The notes: generated by a model from the letters alone, not told the origin. 64,000 nt of DNA from Candidatus Enterousia sp. (GCA_045648885.1 JAZROV010000016.1:3902-67901); one strand, 5' to 3'. Counted from the stretch's first letter, positions 9,059 to 28,163 are shown. Translations and numbers: made by a program.

Positions 9059-11146
9059 TCAGTCGACAGAATTTAACAATGGTTCGCCCAATTCTTTGGC
9101 TGAAAAACGGAACCATTCTGGATCATCACGTTTGATTGGCGCCCCACGTTCCATAGCGGTATTATACGGATGGTCGTCTGCCAACCAACCTTCTAATAAA
9201 TCACCCGCCAACAAGCCTGCGACCAGACCGCCCGCCAGACTAAGTCCCCCAGTCAAAGGTGACAACAACAAACCCAATCCAACGGCCGAACCAACTTTGC
9301 CTGCAATCGCCGCGCCATTTATTTTAAAATCTGGTTCTGCCAAATTCCCCGAAATTTGCAAAGAATTGACCAAATTCCCAGACAAAGATAATTTCAACCC
9401 GCGCACCGGCACAGTCGCCAAAGATAAATCAATAGTTTCTTTGCCTAAATCTAATGTACCTGCCAGACGTAAATTGATAACATGGGTTTCAACCGCTACG
9501 CCGTTTTTGGTTTCAATCAAACCATTACGCAATTTAACATTCGCAATCGCACCATCAATTTGAATCATATCACGTTTGTTGCCTGTAAATAAATCTTCGA
9601 CATTATGACGCAGCGAAGTTAAAAAATCACCGCCATACATATATTCAACCAAATCTGCATGGGCATAACCTTGGTCCACAGAATACACAATTACCGGCCC
9701 AGTAATAGTCTGCATAATTTCAGACATATCTTTGCCGTTTGCACGAACATATAATTCGAGATCCAGTGGCAATCCAGATATAACATCATGCACATAAATT
9801 TGTCTTAAAATTTCCCCAACATGAATACTTTGACCACGCGCTGCCCCTGTCATAATGTAAAGCCCATCCGGGGTTATATCAGAATCGACAACCGCGTCTA
9901 TTTTTCCGCCACCGATACCCACAGTGGCATCTGCACGCAATTTATGATTTTTTACCTTTAATTTCAAATTTGAATTATCCAAATCTAACGAACGATAAAC
10001 TATGAAATGTTTTATGTTCGCATCTAATTCAACATCTGAATTATAAAGCACATCTCCAAACAAAGGCATATCATAAAAAACATTCAAATCACGATTTGGA
10101 TGTATCCATTCAACACCCGCCCCAAACCATTCTGGGAACGATTTATAAATATCTAATCTTCCAGATGAAATTTTAGCACGAACAAACGGAATATTTTTTG
10201 ACCAATCATATGTCCCCGAAAAAGTTATATCAGAATTTCCAAATTTAACAGATGATTTGCGAAAAGATATTTTCTTTCTGTCCATATTCATCGCAATATC
10301 AACATTCATAGACGGCACATTAAATAAATTCAATTTAAACCAATCGCCTGATTTTTTCAGATTTGGAATATCTCCACGAACAATTATATCGATTGGTAAT
10401 TTGCTGGTTCCTTCTAATGCGATATCTGCAATCAAAGCCCTGGCCCCGGTTGCAAATGCAATTTGCACAGGATAAATTTTACGTTCACCGTTATATTCAG
10501 AAAATTTTATTACAAACGGTAAATTCGTATCATATGGTTTTACCCAACCACTGTATTCTACATTTTCATCATGCACATAATTATGGATACCAAAGCTGGA
10601 CATCAAATATTTGTTTCCATAAATATTTGCAGTAATTTTTTGAATTTCTAATCCTGAAAAAGGCAAAGGTCTTACCGGATATTTTTCAATTTTTGTTTCA
10701 TTGTTATCTGATTTACTTTCATTATCTGTCGATTCGATTCTGACAATTGAATCTTGACCATTCGCATTTTTTTCCAGATTGATTTTCGCATCAAAAATTT
10801 TGATATAACGAATCACTGGTTTCGGACGAAACAAAGAAAATAAATCTAAACGAACATCTATTTTTTCTGCTGAAAACAAATTTTTATTTTTCGCCCACTC
10901 TGCATTTGGCACACGCACATTGTTCAATTCTATCTGAGGACGCAAAGAAAATTTCCAAGAAATATCACCGTCTATCTCAATTGGCATATTTGTCGCGTCA
11001 CGCAGACCTGACAAAATATTTCCACGCAATGTTTCTAAATTTATTTGATGTAACGCGATACCAACTGCAACAGCCAACCCCATGAAAAAAAGTGCGATTA
11101 TTCGCAACAACCAAATATAACGTTTATAAAACGTATAAATAAACAT
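9059..11146 (-). CDS. AsmA-family outer-membrane biogenesis protein
   Basis: N-terminal TM anchor, then AsmA-like start (LR.DATNMPIEIDGDISWKFSLRPQIELNNVRVPN), a long beta-rich body and a Gly-rich C-terminus. Assigned by pattern only. Confidence 0.55.
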   Translation of the reverse strand: MFIYTFYKRYIWLLRIIALFFMGLAVAVGIALHQINLETLRGNILSGLRDATNMPIEIDGDISWKFSLRPQIELNNVRVPNAEWAKNKNLFSAEKIDVRLDLFSLFRPKPVIRYIKIFDAKINLEKNANGQDSIVRIESTDNESKSDNNETKIEKYPVRPLPFSGLEIQKITANIYGNKYLMSSFGIHNYVHDENVEYSGWVKPYDTNLPFVIKFSEYNGERKIYPVQIAFATGARALIADIALEGTSKLPIDIIVRGDIPNLKKSGDWFKLNLFNVPSMNVDIAMNMDRKKISFRKSSVKFGNSDITFSGTYDWSKNIPFVRAKISSGRLDIYKSFPEWFGAGVEWIHPNRDLNVFYDMPLFGDVLYNSDVELDANIKHFIVYRSLDLDNSNLKLKVKNHKLRADATVGIGGGKIDAVVDSDITPDGLYIMTGAARGQSIHVGEILRQIYVHDVISGLPLDLELYVRANGKDMSEIMQTITGPVIVYSVDQGYAHADLVEYMYGGDFLTSLRHNVEDLFTGNKRDMIQIDGAIANVKLRNGLIETKNGVAVETHVINLRLAGTLDLGKETIDLSLATVPVRGLKLSLSGNLVNSLQISGNLAEPDFKINGAAIAGKVGSAVGLGLLLSPLTGGLSLAGGLVAGLLAGDLLEGWLADDHPYNTAMERGAPIKRDDPEWFRFSAKELGEPLLNSVD

Positions 11147-12141: not shown

Positions 12142-12663
12142 TTATTTACCATCACCAAATGTAATTGTCAATTTCGTACCATTGCAAGCTGATTCACCAC
12201 CATTTGCCCATGTTCTTTGTGCCAAACCAGAACAAGTCGCAGCGGTATCTGTATTGAACGAAATTTGGAAATATGGACAATCTGCATCCGTGCTTGCACA
12301 TGCGGTATAACTTGCGCCGTTTTTCTTTGCAGCACTGATTGTATATGTATCATCAGTTCCATATGCAGGTTTCACATTGTCAAAGCCCAACACTTTCAAT
12401 GTATTTGCAGATGTAGCAGTCACAATTCCTTTGAACCCACCAGCATCAGCACTGTTGTTATACAGCAAACGAACACCCGCGGCCAACGCAGCGATATCAT
12501 CATCGGCACGACTTAATTTCTGAGAACGCATTGCAGACGTAATCAACACGAACGCCGCAGCGGTGATTAAACCCATAACAGCCAACACGCCGACCATTTC
12601 AATCATTGAACGGCCAGATTCTTGTTTTTTGTTTTTCATTTGTTTTTTAATTTGTTTTTTCAT
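12142..12663 (-). CDS. type IV pilin-like protein, paralogue 1 (longest leader, own promoter)
   Basis: Basic leader, then ESG|RSMIEMVGVLAVMGLITAAAFVL (Glu at +5 from the conserved Gly). C-terminal C..L....W......C pair. AAGGAG RBS. Confidence 0.75.
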   Translation of the reverse strand: MKKQIKKQMKNKKQESGRSMIEMVGVLAVMGLITAAAFVLITSAMRSQKLSRADDDIAALAAGVRLLYNNSADAGGFKGIVTATSANTLKVLGFDNVKPAYGTDDTYTISAAKKNGASYTACASTDADCPYFQISFNTDTAATCSGLAQRTWANGGESACNGTKLTITFGDGK

Positions 12664-12693
12664 TTATTTTTCTCCTTGCTTTCGCTGTTTTAC

Positions 12694-12722
12694 ATTTTAT
12701 CAGATAAAAGCTTTGTCGTCAA
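12694..12722 (-). promoter_or_regulatory. promoter TTGACG-N17-TAAAAT with TG extension (minus strand)
   Basis: Read on the reverse complement: TTGACG acaaagcttttatcTGA TAAAAT, about 30 nt upstream of the paralogue 1 ATG. Confidence 0.6.
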
Positions 12723-12777
12723 ATAGATTAAAAAAACTTTTATCAAATTTTTATTTACGGCATGTCACTTCCGGCAT

Positions 12778-13227
12778 TTATTTTCTGAAATAAATATAAA
12801 CTATACCGCTGTCGCATGACGCGTCCACTGCCTCCGACCATGTTCTTTGAGATAACGCCATACAATCTTCTTCTTCCAAACCGCGCATTTGAACCAGAAA
12901 GTCTGCATGATCACTGTTATCTCTTATTACACTGTACGTCGTGTTGCTGCCAAACGGTGTTGTCGTTGTTATGCGCAAAGAATTTAAAAATTCTATTCCA
13001 CTTTTATAATCAGTAGACAAAGCCCCCATATTTTCGGCTTCTGAATAAACATCACGAATCGTTGCAACAATATTTGCAACCTCAGCAGATGTGCGATTAC
13101 GTCTTTGCGAAGCCAAACCACTTCGTATCAAAACAAACGCGCCAGCGGTGATTAACCCCATAACAGACAACACACCGACCATTTCAATCATTGAACGACC
13201 GGATTCATGTTTTTTATTTTTTTTCAT
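12778..13227 (-). CDS. type IV pilin-like protein, paralogue 2
   Basis: MKKNKKHESG|RSMIEMVGVLSVMGLITAGAFVL. C-terminal EDCMAL...W....C motif. Confidence 0.75.
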   Translation of the reverse strand: MKKNKKHESGRSMIEMVGVLSVMGLITAGAFVLIRSGLASQRRNRTSAEVANIVATIRDVYSEAENMGALSTDYKSGIEFLNSLRITTTTPFGSNTTYSVIRDNSDHADFLVQMRGLEEEDCMALSQRTWSEAVDASCDSGIVYIYFRK

Positions 13228-13242
13228 TCTTTTCTTCCTTTG

Positions 13243-13749
13243 TTATTTTGCATATTGTATTGAAAAATCACAATTGGTTGCAGTACTGGCGCACGCAGTC
13301 GTGTCGTTATCCACAGTCAAACATGTTGCACTATTTGCGACTGCATCTGCCCACGCACTGGCCTTTAACGCTTTGCAATCTGTTGCTTCTAATTTTTTAA
13401 TTTTCACAGTGAAGCGATTCGGTGTTGCAGACGCATAGCGAATCGTATAATAACTATCCCCACCAAATGGTGTCGCCGTTGATATACGCAAATTACCTAA
13501 CAAAGTTTTACCTGCAGCATCAGACGCACCATCTGTGGCCAGATTGCTGAATGTATCACTACCTGCGGACAATGTTCGAATTGTTGACACAATATTTGCG
13601 ACTTCATCTTGGCTGCGGTTACGTTTTTGGGACGCCATACCACTTCGCATCAACACGAAAGCCCCCGCTGTAATCAAACCCATCACCGCCAACACACCGA
13701 CCATTTCAACCATTGAACGGCCTGATTCATGTTTTCTTGTTTGCTTCAT
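13243..13749 (-). CDS. type IV pilin-like protein, paralogue 3
   Basis: MKQTRKHESG|RSMVEMVGVLAVMGLITAGAFVL. C-terminal DCKALKASAW...C, plus an extra Cys pair. Confidence 0.75.
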   Translation of the reverse strand: MKQTRKHESGRSMVEMVGVLAVMGLITAGAFVLMRSGMASQKRNRSQDEVANIVSTIRTLSAGSDTFSNLATDGASDAAGKTLLGNLRISTATPFGGDSYYTIRYASATPNRFTVKIKKLEATDCKALKASAWADAVANSATCLTVDNDTTACASTATNCDFSIQYAK

Positions 13750-13799
13750 TTTAAATATCTCCTTTCATTAGTTTTCCAAGATTATATCACAATATTATT

Positions 13800-14261
13800 C
13801 TATTTGGCAAATAAAATAGATACAACCCCATCTGCGCATACTGCCTGTCCATGTGAATTTGGCCATGCAGTCGCAGCCAACGCTTTACAATCTTCCTGTT
13901 CCAAACCGATCATTTTTACGTAAAATTTAGAATTATCACTGCTGTTTTTGACAACACTATAAACCGTGTTCTGTCCAAACGGGGTTATAGTATTCAGATA
14001 TAACGCATCTATCAATGTTGTTCCATCAGTTGTATTATCTGTCAATTCACTGAAACCTTCACTGTCTGCGTACAAACCACGCACATTTTCAGCAATAACA
14101 GAAACCTCGTCCACCGCACGACTTCGTTTCTGGGCCGCAGCCCCACTGCGAACCAACACAAACGCCCCCGCAGTAATCAATCCCATAACCGCCAACACAC
14201 CGACGATTTCGACCATCGAACGTCCCGATTCATGCTTTTCAAAAAACTTATTCTTTCTCAT
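13800..14261 (-). CDS. type IV pilin-like protein, paralogue 4
   Basis: Start moved to the ATG at 14261 (MRKNKFFEKHESG|RSMVEIVGVLAVMGL). The longer ORF-track version would overlap paralogue 5. Confidence 0.75.
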   Translation of the reverse strand: MRKNKFFEKHESGRSMVEIVGVLAVMGLITAGAFVLVRSGAAAQKRSRAVDEVSVIAENVRGLYADSEGFSELTDNTTDGTTLIDALYLNTITPFGQNTVYSVVKNSSDNSKFYVKMIGLEQEDCKALAATAWPNSHGQAVCADGVVSILFAK

Positions 14262-14283
14262 ATAAAAAACCTTTCTATCAAAA

Positions 14284-14739
14284 TTATTTGTCATAGGTAA
14301 TAGAGATTTTGTAATTCCCCCCAGCAGTACAATTGGATGTTCTTGACACTGCCTCAGGCCATGTTTTCGACGCCAACACAGTGCAATCTCTGGCTGGTAA
14401 ATTTTCAATTGTGACAACAAATCTTGAACTATTTGTCGTATCTAAATCCACAGAATAAACAGTATCTTCATATGGCCCGCTGTTACTGATTTCCATTGCA
14501 GCCATTGCATCATTGCCCTTGTTTTTCAATTCACTTAAATCATCGTATTCGGCATAAAGCGTTCGAATACCGGTCACTATTTTCGAAACATCATCAATAA
14601 CCGTATTGCGTTTCTGGGTTGCCATACCATTACGAATTAAAACGAACGCACCCACTGTCATCAACCCCATCATAGCCAACACGCCAATAATTTCAATCAT
14701 TGATCGCCCAGATTCTTTTCCTTTATAGATTCTTGACAT
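14284..14739 (-). CDS. type IV pilin-like protein, paralogue 5 (first gene of the 4-gene block)
   Basis: MSRIYKGKESG|RSMIEIIGVLAMMGLMTVGAFVL. C-terminal RDCTVLASKTW...C. Confidence 0.75.
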   Translation of the reverse strand: MSRIYKGKESGRSMIEIIGVLAMMGLMTVGAFVLIRNGMATQKRNTVIDDVSKIVTGIRTLYAEYDDLSELKNKGNDAMAAMEISNSGPYEDTVYSVDLDTTNSSRFVVTIENLPARDCTVLASKTWPEAVSRTSNCTAGGNYKISITYDK

Positions 14740-14766
14740 AATGCCCCCTTGATTTTTAACAATTAT

Positions 14767-14795
14767 ATTTTATCATGAAACCTATGGACATTCAA
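14767..14795 (-). promoter_or_regulatory. promoter TTGAAT-N17-TAAAAT with TG extension (minus strand), overlapping the uvrC start codon
   Basis: The reverse complement reads TTGAAT gtccataggtttcaTGA TAAAAT. It has the same TGATAAAAT as the paralogue 1 promoter and lies inside the first codons of divergent uvrC. Confidence 0.5.
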
Positions 14796-16211
14796 TTCAA
14801 AGATTTAATAAAAAACACACCTCTGTCACCCGGAATTTATAAAATGTATGACGATTCGGGGAATTTGTTGTATGTCGGCAAAGCAAAAAATTTGTTTAAC
14901 AGATTAAATCAATACATTGATATTTCGAAACTGGAAACACACAAACAAATCATGCGCACATTGGTTCGACGTGTTGAATGGGAAATTACACCAAACGAAT
15001 CAGAGGCTTTGATTTTGGAACAAAAACTTATAAAAACATTAAAGCCTAAATATAACATCATGCTGACAGATGGAAAAATGTACCCAATGTTGGCATTAAC
15101 AAAACATGAATTTCCACGACTGTTAAAATTTCGCGGCAAAATATCGCAAAAAAAAGATATCTATGGTCCATATCCGTCTGTGTACGCATTGAACGAAACA
15201 ATTAAAACTATTCAACGCGTATGCCAATTACGCACATGCAACGATACTTTCATGCGCAATCGATCACGTCCATGTCTGCTTTATCAAATTGGACGGTGCA
15301 GTGCACCATGCTGTATCCCACAAAATAATTACGATAAAAATGTACAATTGGCACGTCGTATTTTAACCGGGGACAGTGAACCGATAATTTCTGATTTAAC
15401 AAAAATGATGAAAGATTTTTCAGACAAAATGGATTTTGAAAATGCTGCAATTATACGTGATAAAATAACTGCACTGACCAATACTACAAATCGCGGTATA
15501 CGACAGAAACCGTCGTATAACACGAATTTTGATTGGGATAAAAACGTTTCAGATTTGGAAAAATGGTTAAACATAAAAATCAATTGTGCCGGTGTATTTG
15601 ATAATTCACATTTGTTTGGCAAAGCGCCCGTTGGTGCAATGATAGCATTTGGTCATGATGGATTTATAAAATCATCATACCGACACTTTAAATTACACGA
15701 TGTTCAACACAGCGGTAATGATATTGCGATGATGGCAGAATTTGTCGAACGCGCTATAAACGATGGTCCAAAACTTGATTTAATTATTGTTGATGGTGGA
15801 CGCGCGCAATGGAATATTGCACATCGTATTGCGAATGGCAAAATACCCGTTTTAGGTGTGACCAAAGGTGTCGTTCGCAACGGTGATGAACACTTTATTA
15901 TGCCAGACGGTTCAGAAAACACTTCATTACCAAAAGACAGCAATCTGTTTTTACTTTTGCGCGCGGTTCGTGATGAAGCGCACAGATTTGTTATTACATA
16001 TCATCGTTTAAAACGTGCAAAACAAATGACTGCCAGTGTACTGGACGAAATAGAAGGAATCGGTCCAATTCGAAAAAAACAATTATTACAACATTACGGT
16101 TCTGTACGTGCAATTATGGATGCAGATTTAAAATCGCTTTCATTGTGTCCAGGACTTGGCAAATCTGCCGCAGAAAAAATATATGCATATTTTCATTCTG
16201 ACATGTTATAA
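14775..16211 (+). CDS. uvrC: excinuclease ABC subunit C (compact form)
   Basis: GIY-YIG (GIYKMYD...LYVGKAKNL), UVR motif (FENAAIIRDKITAL), RNaseH-like endonuclease block (FDNSH...IVDGGRAQ...RDEAHRF) and HhH (IEGIGPIRKKQLL). 478 aa versus about 600 typical. Confidence 0.9.
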   Translation: MKPMDIQFKDLIKNTPLSPGIYKMYDDSGNLLYVGKAKNLFNRLNQYIDISKLETHKQIMRTLVRRVEWEITPNESEALILEQKLIKTLKPKYNIMLTDGKMYPMLALTKHEFPRLLKFRGKISQKKDIYGPYPSVYALNETIKTIQRVCQLRTCNDTFMRNRSRPCLLYQIGRCSAPCCIPQNNYDKNVQLARRILTGDSEPIISDLTKMMKDFSDKMDFENAAIIRDKITALTNTTNRGIRQKPSYNTNFDWDKNVSDLEKWLNIKINCAGVFDNSHLFGKAPVGAMIAFGHDGFIKSSYRHFKLHDVQHSGNDIAMMAEFVERAINDGPKLDLIIVDGGRAQWNIAHRIANGKIPVLGVTKGVVRNGDEHFIMPDGSENTSLPKDSNLFLLLRAVRDEAHRFVITYHRLKRAKQMTASVLDEIEGIGPIRKKQLLQHYGSVRAIMDADLKSLSLCPGLGKSAAEKIYAYFHSDML

Positions 16212-24834: not shown

Positions 24835-26463
24835 TTAATTCAATGGCGCACCCCAATTCTGTTGAATGTTCCGTTCTGCATCCATCGGGCTGACCAAAAC
24901 ATTCGGAGTCAAGATAACAACCAAAACTTCACGTGTTCCTTTGGCATCGCGAGAGCCCGACAACGCCATAAAGTCCGCATCGCCCAAACCGTATCTGGTA
25001 TCATCGTTCGTCTGTTTTTCAAATCCAGACACGACCAGCATTTGACCAGATTCCATAATAACTTCCTGCATAAACGAACGTTCTTCAACTTCTGGTAATT
25101 GCAGAGTAAAGCCTGAATCACCACCAATCTTTTGAGTATTCATTCTGACCAATTCGCGCACATTCATTTTAAACAACAACAATATCTTGCCGCTTTCCAA
25201 AATATTCGGCAATAATTGTAATGAAAAACCAGTTTCCAAATCAGACTGTTCAACAGTGCTGGTTTCGACCGTTGTGAAATTACGAGATTCCAAACGTTTG
25301 ATATATCCCGTGGTTTTAGTATTATTCACCGGCGCAACACGATTATTACGTGTTGTCACACCAACATTCGTCACCAAAGACACTTTACCCTGCTTTGCCA
25401 AAGCATCTATCAACGCCCCAGATCCCGCAATACGAGAATCGTTTATTTGTGCATCAGTATATGCACCCGCTACAACATTACCACTGCTGTCCAGATGGGT
25501 TGCGCCTGTCGTAGCAGACAACGCATTACTTAACACCGCAACGCTCAAAGAACTGGCACCTGCAACTTCTGGATGCGATGGACTGGCAACAATATTCAAT
25601 CCCGATGCAGAATTCACAGCCGCTGCCAAATTCAAACCAAACGCAGATTCATTTGACAAAGACACTTGAAGCACTTTGACATCAATCGTGACCAATTGTG
25701 ACAAACGTTTATTCTGACGCGCGATATATTCAGCAACACGGTTCAACACAGACGGTGACGCCGTGACAGTAATTGTTCCCAAACTGCGTGATACTGTAAA
25801 TTGAGCATTTTTTACCCCGCTGACAATAGATGTTATTGCCGCTTCTATTTCGTCCCATTCATTCAAATTAGATTCCAAAGAAACCGCATTTCCATCATTT
25901 GATTGCACAGATGATTGATATGACACGTCGGTCCCCAGCGCAAACAAAGTATACGTCCGTGTTTCTGTTTCATAGAAAACGATTGCGCCTTTGTCATAAT
26001 ACCAAAGCAAATCTAAATCTGTCGCAATTTGAGATAACAAACCTGACAATTTTCCAGTATAAGCGACATCAACCGTTCTCTTTAATTTTTCAGTATCAAT
26101 CTGACTATCTATTTTCACAGGAATACCAGTGATAGAATTTATGTCATTTGCCAATGCTTGAAGCGTGACCGGTTCACTTAATAAAATAGTCACCCCAGAA
26201 TCAGTTTCATATTTTGACGGCAAATTATTTTTATGTTCCAATAACATTGATTTATTACCCAACCAAACACCTTCGGACATAGAAACCGTATCACCACCGG
26301 CAACTTTTGCACGCGGGCTTTTGGACAATTCAAACATTTCATGGGCATTCACAAAATCTTTATCTACAGCTGCAGACACTTTGGCAGATTCACGCAACGT
26401 GCATCCAGACATAGCCAACCCTGCAACCAAACCCAAAATACAAACATAAAAACGATTTGCCAT
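24835..26463 (-). CDS. lipoprotein secretin (type IVb pilus PilN/TcpC-like)
   Basis: Lipobox AMSGC. C-terminal secretin domain pattern (LQLLPNILESGKILLLF...MESGQMLVVSGFEKQ...REVLVVILTPNVL). Confidence 0.75.
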   Translation of the reverse strand: MANRFYVCILGLVAGLAMSGCTLRESAKVSAAVDKDFVNAHEMFELSKSPRAKVAGGDTVSMSEGVWLGNKSMLLEHKNNLPSKYETDSGVTILLSEPVTLQALANDINSITGIPVKIDSQIDTEKLKRTVDVAYTGKLSGLLSQIATDLDLLWYYDKGAIVFYETETRTYTLFALGTDVSYQSSVQSNDGNAVSLESNLNEWDEIEAAITSIVSGVKNAQFTVSRSLGTITVTASPSVLNRVAEYIARQNKRLSQLVTIDVKVLQVSLSNESAFGLNLAAAVNSASGLNIVASPSHPEVAGASSLSVAVLSNALSATTGATHLDSSGNVVAGAYTDAQINDSRIAGSGALIDALAKQGKVSLVTNVGVTTRNNRVAPVNNTKTTGYIKRLESRNFTTVETSTVEQSDLETGFSLQLLPNILESGKILLLFKMNVRELVRMNTQKIGGDSGFTLQLPEVEERSFMQEVIMESGQMLVVSGFEKQTNDDTRYGLGDADFMALSGSRDAKGTREVLVVILTPNVLVSPMDAERNIQQNWGAPLN

Positions 26464-26495: not shown

Positions 26496-27446
26496 TTATT
26501 CGTCCAGCGTTGATATCACCAGAACACGATTCCCCTTGTAAAATTTTGCATACGGTGCCGGCGCAGCCCGTTCAAAATTACGAACCAACGCAGAAGCGAC
26601 ATCAACAAAGCGCCCTTTGAATACAGCACTGGCTTCGATTGGATATTCACGTGGTGTTGTCCAAACCAAATCCCAACCTTCTTTGTCACACCATGCCTTT
26701 AACACATCCTGCAAAGTCTGGCCAGACGCAACCACCCAAGAACGCACTTCGTTATCAACAAACGCAGGCACCTGGTCATCAACATCATCATTTACATTTA
26801 TAACCGCAGTATTACCAGCCACATTCTGACCAGATATTTCTGGAGTTTTTTCAGCCACAAAACCCGCCCGTTCTGCGAACGCCATATACGCATCCGGTTG
26901 TTTATTGCAAACGCGACGTGCACTGCGAGACATAGACAAAACCGTTCCGCCATCATCTTCCATCATTTCGCGCTGCAACAAAGGCATTTCTGCATTATTT
27001 ACACATTCATAGTCAAAACCAGCCGGAATTTGGCGACCATTATCAATACTGGGGCCACCAGACCACCCAGTACCACGAACGCCGCCCATATTTATATTAT
27101 TTTCTATAACCAGCCCCGAACCTATTTTCGACACGATTTTCATATCGCCATCGGAACAGCCCGCGTCTTTACAACTGATTTGGAAATCAGCATCAGTCCC
27201 CACCAATGGCCAAACAGGAATACGCTCTGTCACGTTGGCCATTTGAACAGGTTCATAATTGTTTGTTTGGATATATCTTTGTTCAACAACAGTGTCTTCT
27301 ACGACGTCATCTGCCCGATCCATATCATCATATTCATCATAGTCATAGAACACTTCTGAAGTCACAATTTGTTGTGGCATATCCGCCGCAAACGCAGTCC
27401 CACCCAGCAAAACAGGCAATAAAAACAAACAAAATTTGTATGACAT
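26496..27446 (-). CDS. TcpQ/PilL-like pilus biogenesis protein
   Basis: Signal peptide. C-terminal WVVASGQTLQDVLKAWCDKEGWDLVWTTPREYPIEASAVFKGRFVDVASALV matches the TcpQ-type domain pattern (recalled). Start at the ATG at 27446 after GGAAAGGAAAAG. Confidence 0.65.
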   Translation of the reverse strand: MSYKFCLFLLPVLLGGTAFAADMPQQIVTSEVFYDYDEYDDMDRADDVVEDTVVEQRYIQTNNYEPVQMANVTERIPVWPLVGTDADFQISCKDAGCSDGDMKIVSKIGSGLVIENNINMGGVRGTGWSGGPSIDNGRQIPAGFDYECVNNAEMPLLQREMMEDDGGTVLSMSRSARRVCNKQPDAYMAFAERAGFVAEKTPEISGQNVAGNTAVINVNDDVDDQVPAFVDNEVRSWVVASGQTLQDVLKAWCDKEGWDLVWTTPREYPIEASAVFKGRFVDVASALVRNFERAAPAPYAKFYKGNRVLVISTLDE

Positions 27447-27476
27447 AATTCTTTTCCTTTCCATTTATTATATATG

Positions 27477-27608: not shown

Positions 27609-28163
27609 ATGGATAAAAACATGGAAAACACTATATTTTTAATTCTGATTTCGGTATTGGCAGTATTAAATATTATCTGCATTTTCTTTGCGTTAAATTC
27701 GAACAAACACATACGCAATATTTCAAAGACTTTGACACACCAATACAATTTGATTGTAAAAATTCAAAATGTTTTAAAAAACAGAATTTCTGTCAATGAC
27801 ACAACAGACAAAGCAGAAATAATCTACCAAGATCTTTTACAAGATTTAATTCCAATCATGGCATCAATAGATGTTATGCCACGCAGTACATCTGAACATC
27901 CGCTTTGGCGGGCATTGGGCGGCATTATGGACGAATATGCAAAAAACCCGTTTGTGTTGGAAAAATTGCGTCGTGCGATAAAATTAGATTCTACAATCGC
28001 CCGTAATATCAGTCATTATTTAACACGCGCAAATATGTTTTTACAACACATGGCAACGACTGATACAGACGGCATATTGGCAACAACATTCACAGACGGC
28101 TTGTTGGGACAATCTTTGACATTTTTTGCCCAGGCACAAGCCCTGGCCACACCAGATAAATGA
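27609..28163 (+). CDS. hypothetical membrane-anchored protein, translationally coupled to sufB
   Basis: One N-terminal TM segment. The stop overlaps the sufB ATG (ATGA). No recognisable domain. Confidence 0.55.
   Translation: MDKNMENTIFLILISVLAVLNIICIFFALNSNKHIRNISKTLTHQYNLIVKIQNVLKNRISVNDTTDKAEIIYQDLLQDLIPIMASIDVMPRSTSEHPLWRALGGIMDEYAKNPFVLEKLRRAIKLDSTIARNISHYLTRANMFLQHMATTDTDGILATTFTDGLLGQSLTFFAQAQALATPDK

What the first reader, a model, noticed from the sequence alone, without database searches (positions are those of the whole stretch)
12142..14795. Five tandem type-IV-pilin-like paralogues with a non-canonical G|RSM(I/V)E prepilin motif
All five ORFs (149-173 aa) begin with a short basic leader of 10-17 aa. 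This is followed by the invariant block ESGRSM[IV]E[MI][VI]GVL[AS][VM]MGL[IM]T[AV][AG]AFVL. Aligned to the classical G|FTLIE class III signal, the Gly and the Glu at +5 are conserved, but the +1 residue is Arg rather than Phe, Met or Leu. The C-termini are divergent but keep a C..L....W.....C pair, as in the pilin disulfide (D) region. No minor-pilin set, assembly ATPase, platform protein or prepilin peptidase is adjacent. The array sits between rluC and uvrC. Two promoters with the identical extended -10 TGATAAAAT are readable, one for paralogue 1 and one for the 5-4-3-2 block. The second overlaps the uvrC start codon.
Basis: partly seen in the sequence, partly recalled or inferred. Interest (0 to 1): 0.7.

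Follow-up and report, generated by a model that had tools for sequence, protein, structure and literature searches.

The report
Arg-first type IVb pilin gene array
Five neighbouring genes in an uncultured small-genome gut alphaproteobacterium encode small type IVb pilus subunits whose mature end is predicted to start with arginine, an unstudied variant of a well-known adhesion pilus.

Summary
Five minus-strand genes between uvrC and rluC encode 149-173 aa proteins. Each has a 10-17 aa basic leader, the invariant block ESG-RSM(I/V)E, a hydrophobic helix and a C-terminal Cys pair.

They are type IVb pilins. A family profile hits TcpA (E 1.5e-9), CofA and BfpA. The AlphaFold model (pLDDT 84) best matches TcpA and CofA in their filaments. 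The TcpA alignment puts Arg at +1, Ser at +2 and Glu at +5.

This pair is specific to type IVb pili.

The organism belongs to Candidatus Enterousia / order Rs-D84, gut bacteria with genomes under 1 Mb. The uvrC-rluC pilin slot is conserved in about 64 of 79 species and holds 1 to 8 copies.

In sister lineages, G|RSM pilins end complete operons: TcpQ, secretin, PilO, ATPase, platform, pilins.

Not settled: no ATPase, platform or prepilin peptidase was found in the window or near any Enterousia locus. The whole genome could not be searched, and cleavage at G|R is inferred.

Verdict: a new variant of a known kind, moderately interesting.

The parts
14284..14739 (-). par5: prepilin, 151 aa, leader MSRIYKGKESG then RSMIE. 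First gene of the array, and the type closest to the single pilin that most related species carry in this slot.
   Evidence: ORF and sequence. AlphaFold model pLDDT 83.6 with helix 14-61 and four strands. Foldseek top hits are TcpA 8uhf and CofA 9iuf. Best window match for 59 of 64 single-copy loci.
13800..14261 (-). par4: prepilin, 153 aa, leader MRKNKFFEKHESG then RSMVE.
   Evidence: Positional orthologue in L080 is 71% identical. Sub-threshold Bundlin PF05307 hit, E 0.013.
13243..13749 (-). par3: prepilin, 168 aa, leader MKQTRKHESG then RSMVE. Four Cys in the mature part.
   Evidence: Orthologue in L080 is 77% identical.
12778..13227 (-). par2: prepilin, 149 aa, leader MKKNKKHESG then RSMIE.
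   Evidence: The gene at the same position in L080 is only 47% identical, so this slot has turned over.
12142..12663 (-). par1: prepilin, 173 aa, 17-aa leader then RSMIE. The most divergent paralogue within the window (31-44% to the others), and it has its own promoter-like site. Its stop codon lies 5 nt from the rluC start.
   Evidence: Orthologue in L080 is 82% identical.
14767..14795 (-). Promoter-like site upstream of par5: TTGAAT-17-TAAAAT with TG. It shares one base with the uvrC start codon.
   Evidence: A consensus match only.
13781..13810 (-). Promoter-like site upstream of par3: TTGCCA-18-TATAAT with TG, 11 of 12 matches.
   Evidence: A consensus match only.
12694..12722 (-). Promoter-like site upstream of par1: TTGACG-17-TAAAAT with TG.
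   Evidence: A consensus match only.
24835..26463 (-). Lipoprotein secretin of the PilN / type IVb family, 542 aa. The signal peptide ends in a lipobox, ...GLAMSG-C.
   Evidence: Pfam Secretin E 7e-14. NCBIfam TIGR02520, PilN-family type IVB secretin, E 1.8e-75 and 254 bits, just under the 288-bit cutoff. Relatives are 74-100% identical across more than 120 clusters. It is 31% identical (E 3e-81) to the secretin of the complete operon in L091.
26496..27464 (-). Secretin partner, 322 aa, with a signal peptide and a C-terminal TcpQ domain. It is the counterpart of TcpQ and BfpG.
   Evidence: Pfam TcpQ PF10671 E 3.3e-18. The domain is 52% identical to TcpQ of operon L091. The TcpQ-then-secretin gene order is the same as in the Thalassospira plasmid pil operon.

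Best explanation
The five genes encode prepilins of a previously undescribed branch of the type IVb pilin family (the TcpA / CofA / bundlin kind). The host is a Candidatus Enterousia-like (order Rs-D84) gut alphaproteobacterium.

Proposed mechanism:
1. Each protein inserts into the inner membrane through its hydrophobic N-terminal helix.
2. A prepilin peptidase removes the 10-17 aa basic leader after the invariant Gly. The mature subunit then begins Arg1-Ser2-Met3-Ile/Val4-Glu5.
3. The 132-156 aa subunits have a helix of about 50 residues without Pro22. Their small alpha/beta head is stapled by a Cys-x17-20-Cys disulfide.
4. The subunits polymerise into a filament. It leaves the cell through the PilN-type lipoprotein secretin and its TcpQ partner, encoded 10 kb away.
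5. Arg1 lies one helical turn from Glu5. It probably pairs with Glu5, within one subunit or between neighbours, and so neutralises that buried charge.

The array grew from one ancestral gene of the par5 type. The copies evolve faster than their housekeeping neighbours, as expected for exposed subunits used as alternative or mixed building blocks.

The most likely role is attachment to partner cells, host surfaces or each other.

Shown: homology, predicted fold, motif register, secretin and TcpQ, conserved synteny, and linkage of G|RSM pilins to full type IVb operons in sister lineages.

Inferred: cleavage at G|R, filament assembly, the Arg1-Glu5 pairing and the biological role.
For: Homology and fold
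- The profile of 124 family members hits TcpA at E 1.5e-9, CofA at 6.7e-4 and BfpA at 5e-3. The alignment runs from residue 3 of mature TcpA to its first D-region Cys.
- The AlphaFold model has pLDDT 83.6, with helix 14-61 and four strands.
- Foldseek top hits are TcpA in the TCP filament (E 3.5e-5, probability 1.0, TM about 0.6) and CofA.

Conservation of the motif
- G-1, R+1, S+2 and E+5 are near-invariant in 124 aligned relatives.
- 130 of 139 further 50%-identity representatives have Arg at +1.
- Paralogues inside related arrays read G|IAMLE and G|LSVLE. This fixes the register of the motif.

Machinery
- A type IVb secretin and a TcpQ partner are in the window. A lipoprotein secretin with a TcpQ/BfpG partner is specific to type IVb pili (PMC12531336).
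- In an Enterousia sp. (L034) a G|RSMVE pilin gene lies directly downstream of TcpQ-secretin.
- In sister lineages G|RSM pilins close complete operons: TcpQ, Secretin, PilO, T2SSE ATPase (Walker A GPTGSGKS), T2SSF, pilins. 79 further loci were recovered through that ATPase, and most with enough flanking sequence show the same TcpQ-secretin-PilO-ATPase-platform order.
- The longer relatives in those lineages pass Pfam Bundlin and PilS.

Selection and inheritance
- The pilin slot between uvrC and rluC is conserved in about 64 of 79 species.
- The secretin is at least 74% identical across more than 120 clusters.
- Pilin orthologues are 47-82% identical, against 80-98% for flanking genes.
Against: - No GspE/PilB-type ATPase, GspF-type platform, PilO or A24 peptidase is encoded in the 64-kb window.
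- None lies within 10 kb of 79 related pilin loci in reference genomes.
- The metagenome scan with the sister-lineage ATPase recovered no ATPase next to an Enterousia-type secretin.
- A published genome survey of Rs-D84 reported type IV pilus genes only for another lineage (PMC12306168).
- No A24 peptidase lies within 6-10 kb of the complete sister operons either. The enzyme that would cut G|R is therefore unidentified.
- The window proteins miss the prepilin N-methylation models PF07963 and TIGR02532, and reach Bundlin only below threshold.
- A charged side chain at residue 1 has to cross the membrane and sit in a hydrophobic filament core. I know of no characterised precedent (my own knowledge).
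Confidence: 0.72

Rival explanations
1. The proteins form a short periplasmic pseudopilus (endopilus). It drives protein secretion through the secretin, as in type II secretion or TcpF export by TCP, and is not a long surface pilus.
For: - There are five tandem pilin-like genes, the same number as GspG-K.
- The N-termini give weak, sub-threshold hits to GspH and XpsH.
- Database pipelines name some relatives PulG or GspH family.
- Type IVb systems are known to export proteins as well (established knowledge for TCP and CFA/III).
Against: - All five keep Glu5, have similar sizes and are 31-55% identical to each other. GspG-K differ from one another far more than that.
- Copy number in the slot varies from 1 to 8 between species, so it is not a fixed five-part set.
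- Fold and profile point to major type IVb pilins, not pseudopilins.
- There is no T2SSG Pfam hit.
- The secretin is of the PilN type, not GspD.
Confidence: 0.1
2. The genes are leftovers of a type IVb system whose motor has been lost during genome reduction. They now act as membrane-anchored or periplasmic proteins, or they are assembled by another machine such as the type IV secretion system.
For: - No ATPase, platform, PilO or peptidase was found in the window or in about 1.4 Mb of related Enterousia-type loci.
- The Rs-D84 genome survey did not report type IV pilus genes.
- In Enterousia the operon is visibly broken. TcpQ-secretin is followed directly by a pilin or by housekeeping genes, where sister lineages have PilO, ATPase and platform.
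- A VirD4-type coupling protein is in the window.
Against: - These genomes are under 1 Mb and about 90% coding, with no pseudogene build-up (PMC12306168).
- The secretin is nonetheless 74-100% identical across many species.
- Gly-1, Ser2 and Glu5 matter only for processing and assembly, yet they are near-invariant in thousands of sequences.
- Only about 7% of the genome was visible, so absence was not tested.
Confidence: 0.1
3. The filament is a DNA-uptake (competence) pilus or a conjugative thin pilus of the R64 kind, not an adhesin.
For: - dprA lies 2-3 genes from the secretin locus.
- The secretin is of the PilN (R64 thin pilus) family.
- The nearest plasmid system sits beside Dot/Tra-type transfer genes.
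- A VirD4-like coupling protein is in the window.
- Organisms that lack biosynthetic pathways could use imported DNA as a nutrient (inference).
Against: - dprA sits next to dnaA in a conserved origin-proximal block, so the proximity may be coincidental.
- The pilins resemble TcpA, CofA and bundlin, not R64 PilS, whose Thalassospira counterpart begins G|WGIGS.
- No shufflon or PilV-type adhesin was seen.
- The system is chromosomal and vertically inherited, not on a mobile element.
Confidence: 0.08

Closest known systems
Toxin-coregulated pilus of Vibrio cholerae (TcpA, with the TcpC secretin and TcpQ)
   Same: - Best sequence hit (E 1.5e-9) and best fold hit (8uhf).
- The N-terminal helix shares Ser/Thr2, Glu5, Gly at 14 and 19, and no Pro22.
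- The first Cys of the disulfide region aligns.
- It has a lipoprotein secretin and a TcpQ-domain partner.
   Different: - Mature TcpA starts with Met, here Arg.
- The TcpA leader is about 25 aa, here 10-17 aa.
- TcpA is 199 aa with a loop of about 65 residues between its Cys residues. Here the mature subunit is 132-156 aa with 17-20 residues between them.
- TCP genes form one operon on a pathogenicity island with ATPase TcpT, platform TcpE and peptidase TcpJ. Here the genes are scattered near the chromosomal origin and those three were not found.
- TCP has one major pilin gene, here five.
CFA/III and Longus pili of enterotoxigenic E. coli (CofA/LngA), and the bundle-forming pilus (BfpA, BfpB-BfpG)
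   Same: - Second- and third-best profile and fold matches.
- Relatives of the window proteins pass Pfam Bundlin.
- The BfpB-BfpG lipoprotein secretin and partner correspond to the pair in the window (PMC12531336).
   Different: - Residue 1 is Met or Leu.
- They are plasmid-borne virulence operons with a dedicated peptidase.
- Their heads are larger.
- BFP also has a retraction ATPase.
R64 / ICE-type thin pilus (PilL-PilV)
   Same: - The secretin falls in the PilN family (TIGR02520, E 1.8e-75).
- The gene order TcpQ-domain protein, secretin, PilO, PilP-like, ATPase, platform, pilin matches the Thalassospira plasmid operon and the sister-lineage operons.
   Different: - Only 26-28% identity to plasmid PilN proteins.
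- The pilins are not PilS-like at the N-terminus.
- There is no mobile-element context and no shufflon adhesin.
Type IV pili of Saccharibacteria and other Patescibacteria (functional analogy only)
   Same: Both are reduced-genome organisms thought to depend on partners (PMC12306168 draws the comparison for Rs-D84). In such organisms pili are the obvious contact organelle.
   Different: - They are unrelated lineages, and the Patescibacteria pili are of the type IVa kind.
- No experimental link exists here. The analogy rests on my own knowledge.

Membership tests
Type IV pilin superfamily (class III signal peptide) | Short basic leader ending in Gly at -1 | tested here: met
   Leaders of 10-17 aa rich in Lys and Arg, all ending ESG. 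Gly is near-invariant in 124 relatives.
Type IV pilin superfamily (class III signal peptide) | Glu at +5, Ser/Thr at +2, then about 20 hydrophobic residues | tested here: met
   R-S-M-I/V-E, then MVGVLAVMGLITAGAFVL. The register is fixed by the HMM alignment to TcpA residues 3-5.
Type IV pilin superfamily (class III signal peptide) | Hydrophobic or aromatic residue at +1 (Phe, Met, Leu, Val, Trp) | tested here: not met
   Arg in all five genes, in 117 of 120 close homologues and in 130 of 139 further representatives. Rare paralogues have Ile, Leu or Ser.
Type IV pilin superfamily (class III signal peptide) | Match to the prepilin N-methylation site models PF07963 / TIGR02532 | tested here: not met
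   No hit even at E<=10.
Type IV pilin superfamily (class III signal peptide) | Cleavage by an A24 prepilin peptidase, with or without N-methylation | not testable with these tools
   No A24 peptidase in the window, nor within 6-10 kb of related operons. The rest of the genome could not be read.
Type IV pilin superfamily (class III signal peptide) | Long N-terminal helix packed on an antiparallel sheet (lollipop fold) | tested here: met
   A prediction only: helix 14-61 and four strands, pLDDT 83.6. The top Foldseek hits are all pilins.
Type IVb pilins (TcpA / CofA / BfpA / PilS) | Detectable sequence homology to characterised type IVb pilins | tested here: met
   Profile against PDB: TcpA 1.5e-9, CofA 6.7e-4, BfpA 5e-3. 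The window proteins alone reach Pfam Bundlin only below threshold, at 16-17 bits against a 22.3 cutoff. Longer relatives pass Bundlin and PilS.
Type IVb pilins (TcpA / CofA / BfpA / PilS) | No Pro22; variable residue 1 | tested here: met
   Position 22 is Val. The criterion is quoted from PMC10710030.
Type IVb pilins (TcpA / CofA / BfpA / PilS) | Long leader and a mature size around 200 aa | tested here: not met
   Leaders are 10-17 aa and mature proteins 132-156 aa, which is in the type IVa size range.
Type IVb pilins (TcpA / CofA / BfpA / PilS) | C-terminal disulfide-bounded region | tested here: inconclusive
   Two conserved Cys lie 17-20 residues apart, and the first aligns with Cys120 of TcpA. 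The bond itself was not shown.
Type IVb pilus system | Lipoprotein secretin with a TcpQ/BfpG-type partner | tested here: met
   Window 24835-26463 (TIGR02520, E 1.8e-75; lipobox) and 26496-27464 (PF10671, E 3e-18).
Type IVb pilus system | Assembly ATPase, platform protein and PilO-type inner-membrane parts in the same genome | tested here: inconclusive
   Absent from the window and from 81 related Enterousia-type loci. Present next to G|RSM pilins in the sister-lineage operons L087, L091 and L092, and in most of the 79 further loci recovered through the ATPase.
Type II secretion pseudopilins (GspG-K) | One major and four distinct minor pseudopilins, the tip subunit lacking Glu5; GspG (T2SSG) domain | tested here: not met
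   All five keep Glu5 and are mutually 31-55% identical. There is no T2SSG hit, and GspH is only sub-threshold. Copy number varies between species.
Tad / Flp pilins | 40-60 aa, no globular head, G|xxxxEY motif | tested here: not met
   Mature proteins of 132-156 aa with a predicted head, and residue 6 is Met or Ile.

The most novel reading that the evidence does not exclude
Arg1 marks a type IVb filament class with its own maturation chemistry.

- The peptidase that cuts G|R is not the operon-encoded A24 enzyme of classical type IVb systems. None lies near any of the roughly 80 operons examined.
- In Enterousia the motor genes have left the locus, or have been lost.
- The subunits may therefore be processed or assembled by an unrecognised or borrowed machine.
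- The expanding pilin arrays (1 to more than a dozen copies) would be the contact organelle of a partner-dependent gut alphaproteobacterium with a genome under 1 Mb.
Probability: 0.12. Interest if true: 0.8.

Novelty: new variant of a known kind. Interest (0 to 1): 0.5.

Why it matters
Type IVb pili have been studied almost only as plasmid- or island-borne virulence factors of enteric pathogens. This finding changes that picture in three ways.

- **A large unstudied branch.** It is chromosomal and vertically inherited, and its operons recur in human-gut and rumen metagenomes. Its hosts are uncultured Alphaproteobacteria, including Candidatus Enterousia. Those genomes are under 1 Mb and lack respiration and standard transporters. 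They have been proposed to depend on partners, and a recent survey reported no pilus genes for them.
- **A testable question about pilin chemistry.** The invariant Arg at mature position 1 bears on how the buried Glu5 charge is neutralised. It also bears on what prepilin peptidases and N-methylation tolerate.
- **A candidate contact organelle.** If the pilus mediates contact with a partner or host, it gives a handle on the lifestyle, enrichment and cultivation of these bacteria.

Tried and rejected
1. **Motif scans for the machinery.** I looked for GspE-type Walker A and the A24 GxGD(V/F)K motif in the window and in 79 reference-genome loci. Nothing was found.
2. **tblastn with two complete pil operons.** All proteins of the Thalassospira plasmid operon and of operon L087 were run against the window and every fetched locus. 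Only TcpQ and the secretin hit.
3. **Homologue search with the secretin, to reach relatives with intact operons.** The 120 listed hits were all Enterousia-type at 74-100% identity with the same context.
4. **Metagenome scan with an ATPase alignment, to find the Enterousia motor.** It returned 79 sister-lineage loci, most with the full operon. None had an ATPase beside an Enterousia-type secretin. L163 (GC 0.376, 5.8 kb) is too short to assign.
5. **orf184 (27609-28163), the conserved gene divergent from tcpQ, as a possible inner-membrane part.** It is lineage-restricted with no Pfam or NCBIfam hit. The all-helical model has pLDDT 71 and no Foldseek match. This was a dead end.
6. **Text search of papers for GRSMIE, GRSMVE, GRSMLE and GRSLIE.** No papers hold any of them.
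7. **Supplements of the Rs-D84 genome paper, and its reference 17.** Neither is held.
8. **Recent gene conversion between paralogues.** Rejected: the 5' blocks are only 66-79% identical at the DNA level.
9. **Reading the five genes as a GspG-K-like fixed set.** Rejected, because copy number varies between species and all five keep Glu5.
10. **A pilin remnant between plsY and the secretin in the window.** None is there, only an S20-like ORF that L034 also has.


Full report

Yes. Five minus-strand ORFs fill the interval between uvrC and an RluC-type pseudouridine synthase:

| Gene | Coordinates | Length |
|---|---|---|
| par1 | 12142-12663 | 173 aa |
| par2 | 12778-13227 | 149 aa |
| par3 | 13243-13749 | 168 aa |
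| par4 | 13800-14261 | 153 aa |
| par5 | 14284-14739 | 151 aa |

- Each is preceded by a purine-rich ribosome-binding stretch.
- Each starts with a Lys/Arg-rich leader of 10-17 aa.
- The C-terminal C..L....W is invariant. The second Cys comes 7-9 residues after the Trp, not 5.
- At the DNA level the five 5' ends are 66-79% identical. These are old paralogues, not recent copies.

Both TGATAAAAT elements exist, at 12694-12702 and 14767-14775 on the minus strand, within promoter-like sites. A third and better site (TTGCCA-18-TATAAT, 13810-13781) precedes par3. The 9-mer itself is common in the window, with 14 copies against 3.9 expected. The stop codon of par1 is 5 nt from the rluC start, and the only terminator-like hairpin in the region lies inside the par1 coding sequence.

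**2. What are the proteins?**

The curated prepilin-site models do not see them. There is no PF07963 or TIGR02532 hit. Bundlin scores only 16-17 bits, below its cutoff, and GspH/XpsH hits are also sub-threshold.

A profile of 124 family members does find type IVb pilins in the PDB:
- TcpA, E 1.5e-9
- CofA, E 6.7e-4
- BfpA, E 5e-3

The TcpA alignment starts at mature residue 3 and runs to Cys120. It puts R-S-M-I/V-E on M1-T2-L3-L4-E5.

The AlphaFold model of par5 has pLDDT 83.6. It shows a 48-residue helix, four strands, and a short helix that carries the first Cys. Its best PDB matches are TcpA in the cryo-EM TCP filament (E 3.5e-5, probability 1.0) and CofA in the ETEC filament.

Like TcpA, the helix has Ser/Thr2 and Glu5 and lacks Pro22. 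These are the features PMC10710030 gives for type IVb pilins, together with 'a variable residue at position 1'.

The proteins are therefore small type IVb-class pilins. Arg occupies the known variable position, and I know of no characterised example with a charged residue there.

**3. Machinery in the window**

Ten kilobases away are two relevant genes:
- A 542-aa lipoprotein secretin at 24835-26463. Pfam Secretin gives E 7e-14. NCBIfam TIGR02520, the PilN-family type IVB secretin, gives E 1.8e-75.
- Immediately upstream, a 322-aa secreted protein with a C-terminal TcpQ domain at 26496-27464, E 3.3e-18.

A lipoprotein secretin with a TcpQ/BfpG-type partner is particular to type IVb pili (PMC12531336).

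The window holds no GspE-type ATPase, no GspF-type platform, no PilO and no polytopic A24-like protein.

**4. Whose genome, and how widespread?**

Relatives come from gut and rumen MAGs named Candidatus Enterousia or 'Alphaproteobacteria bacterium'. Enterousia belongs to order Rs-D84. Its genomes are under 1 Mb and lack the TCA cycle, respiration and standard transporters. They have been proposed to be partner-dependent. That survey mentions type IV pilus genes only for a different lineage (PMC12306168).

Findings on distribution:
- The uvrC-[pilin]-rluC-AsmA-dnaN arrangement recurs in about 64 of 79 species-level loci.
- The slot holds 1 gene in most species (L051), 5 in the window and L080, and 8 in L018. 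L074, in a different genomic context, carries 15 or more pilin genes.
- The single-copy gene is closest to par5 in 59 of 64 cases, so par5 represents the ancestral gene.
- Positional orthologues between the window and L080 are 82, 47, 77, 71 and 64% identical for par1 to par5. Flanking genes are 80-98% identical.
- The secretin is 74-100% identical in more than 120 clusters.
- The family has 4907 representatives at 50% identity with E<=1e-3, and 928 with E<=1e-10. Of 139 newly listed ones, 130 have Arg at +1.
- Rare paralogues within arrays read G|IAMLE or G|LSVLE, which confirms the register.

**5. Link to a complete machine**

In one Enterousia species (L034) a G|RSMVE pilin gene sits directly after TcpQ-secretin.

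A second subgroup of the family begins GRSM(I/V)EMLGVLAIIGVLSVGG and is about 190-240 aa long. It passes Pfam Bundlin and PilS. In three contigs (L087, L091, L092) this subgroup closes a full operon:
- TcpQ
- Secretin
- PilO
- an unassigned protein of about 520 aa
- T2SSE ATPase (Walker A GPTGSGKS)
- T2SSF platform
- one pilin-like gene without the motif
- up to three G|RSM pilins
- a second, shorter ATPase nearby

The window's TcpQ domain is 52% identical to that operon's, and its secretin 31% (E 3e-81). This is closer than to the best plasmid system, in Thalassospira, at 28%.

A metagenome scan with the operon ATPase returned 79 more loci. Many come from human-gut assemblies. Most with enough flanking sequence show the same TcpQ-secretin-PilO-ATPase-platform order.

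G|RSM pilins are therefore subunits of a canonical type IVb motor in sister lineages. In Enterousia the operon has been split: TcpQ-secretin remains, the pilins moved to the uvrC-rluC slot, and the motor genes are somewhere I could not see, or are gone.

**6. What remains open**

- I could read only about 7% of the genome. None of the searches open to me could be restricted to this lineage.
- No A24 peptidase lies within 6-10 kb of the complete sister operons either. Classical type IVb operons carry their own peptidase (TcpJ, BfpP, PilU), and the Thalassospira operon does too. The enzyme that cuts G|R is unidentified.
- Cleavage, methylation and filament formation are all inferred.

**7. Mechanism proposed**

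The steps are standard for type IV pili:
1. Membrane insertion.
2. Leader removal after Gly.
3. Extraction and polymerisation by the ATPase and platform.
4. Exit through the secretin-TcpQ complex.

The specific suggestion concerns Arg1. In known filaments Glu5 pairs with the N-terminal amine of the next subunit (PMC10191384, PMC10710030). Arg1 lies one helical turn from Glu5. It can offer a second, stronger partner for Glu5, in the membrane-embedded monomer or in the filament core. This is inference and can be tested by modelling and mutagenesis.

The fast-evolving, copy-number-variable array fits exposed subunits under diversifying pressure, used as alternatives or mixed. Attachment to partner cells or host surfaces is the most likely role, given the reduced metabolism. 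Secretion, DNA uptake and mating-pair functions are not excluded.

**8. Verdict**

It is better framed as a new, very large and unstudied branch of type IVb pilins with Arg at position 1. This branch belongs to a chromosomal type IVb system that is split up in Enterousia. It is a new variant of a known kind and moderately interesting. It would be considerably more interesting if the motor or the peptidase proved absent or unconventional.

Noticed in passing
window 61247-63505 (+): A 752-aa VirD4/TraG-type type IV secretion coupling protein (PF02534, E 8e-52). It stands alone beside rsmE, rluB and a TPR protein, with no other T4SS gene in view. This suggests a chromosomal, scattered T4SS as in Rickettsiales.
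   Followed up: partly
window 5741-7744 (-): A 667-aa leucine-rich-repeat protein. Its LRR region resembles those of SspH2/SlrP effectors and internalin J (NCBIfam E 1.7e-26, far below cutoff). A 66%-identical homologue is in L003. It could be a host- or partner-interaction protein.
   Followed up: partly
window 27609-28163 (+): A 184-aa single-pass membrane protein, divergent from tcpQ. It is restricted to this lineage and very conserved (74-94% identity in 120 clusters). It has no family hit and no structural match.
   Followed up: yes
L074 (JAZQXL010000018.1), whole 16.8-kb locus; L018 6259-10480: Extreme pilin gene expansion. L074 carries 15 or more G|RSM pilin genes on both strands. L018 has 8 in the uvrC-rluC slot, one of them with Ile at +1.
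   Followed up: partly
L067, L068, L071, L072, L073, L076, L079 (match starts near 10000 in each): Modular pilins of 280-650 aa. A G|RSMVE pilin module is followed by long Cys-rich repeat regions, which may be adhesin tips. They come from other uncultured gut Alphaproteobacteria.
   Followed up: no
L070 4049-7918 (-): Three consecutive large (404-452 aa) pilin-like genes with G|MLVE, G|ASMTE and G|NFLLQ. The last lacks Glu5, like a tip subunit. They lie next to a G|RSMIE pilin and have no homologue in the window or the other loci.
   Followed up: partly
L087, L091, L092 and most of L097-L175: No A24 prepilin peptidase lies within 6-10 kb of these complete type IVb operons, unlike the TCP, BFP and R64 operons. 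Each operon begins with a protein of about 585 aa and contains one of about 520 aa, both without any Pfam family.
   Followed up: partly
window, whole: TGATAAAAT occurs 14 times against 3.9 expected from shuffles, mostly on the minus strand and often inside genes. It may be a common extended -10 or a compositional word in this AT-rich genome.
   Followed up: no
window 14775-16211 (+): UvrC is only 478 aa here and in relatives. By my recollection UvrC is usually about 600 aa. The UVR domain hit is weak in the syntenic locus. This may be a shortened protein in a reduced genome.
   Followed up: no
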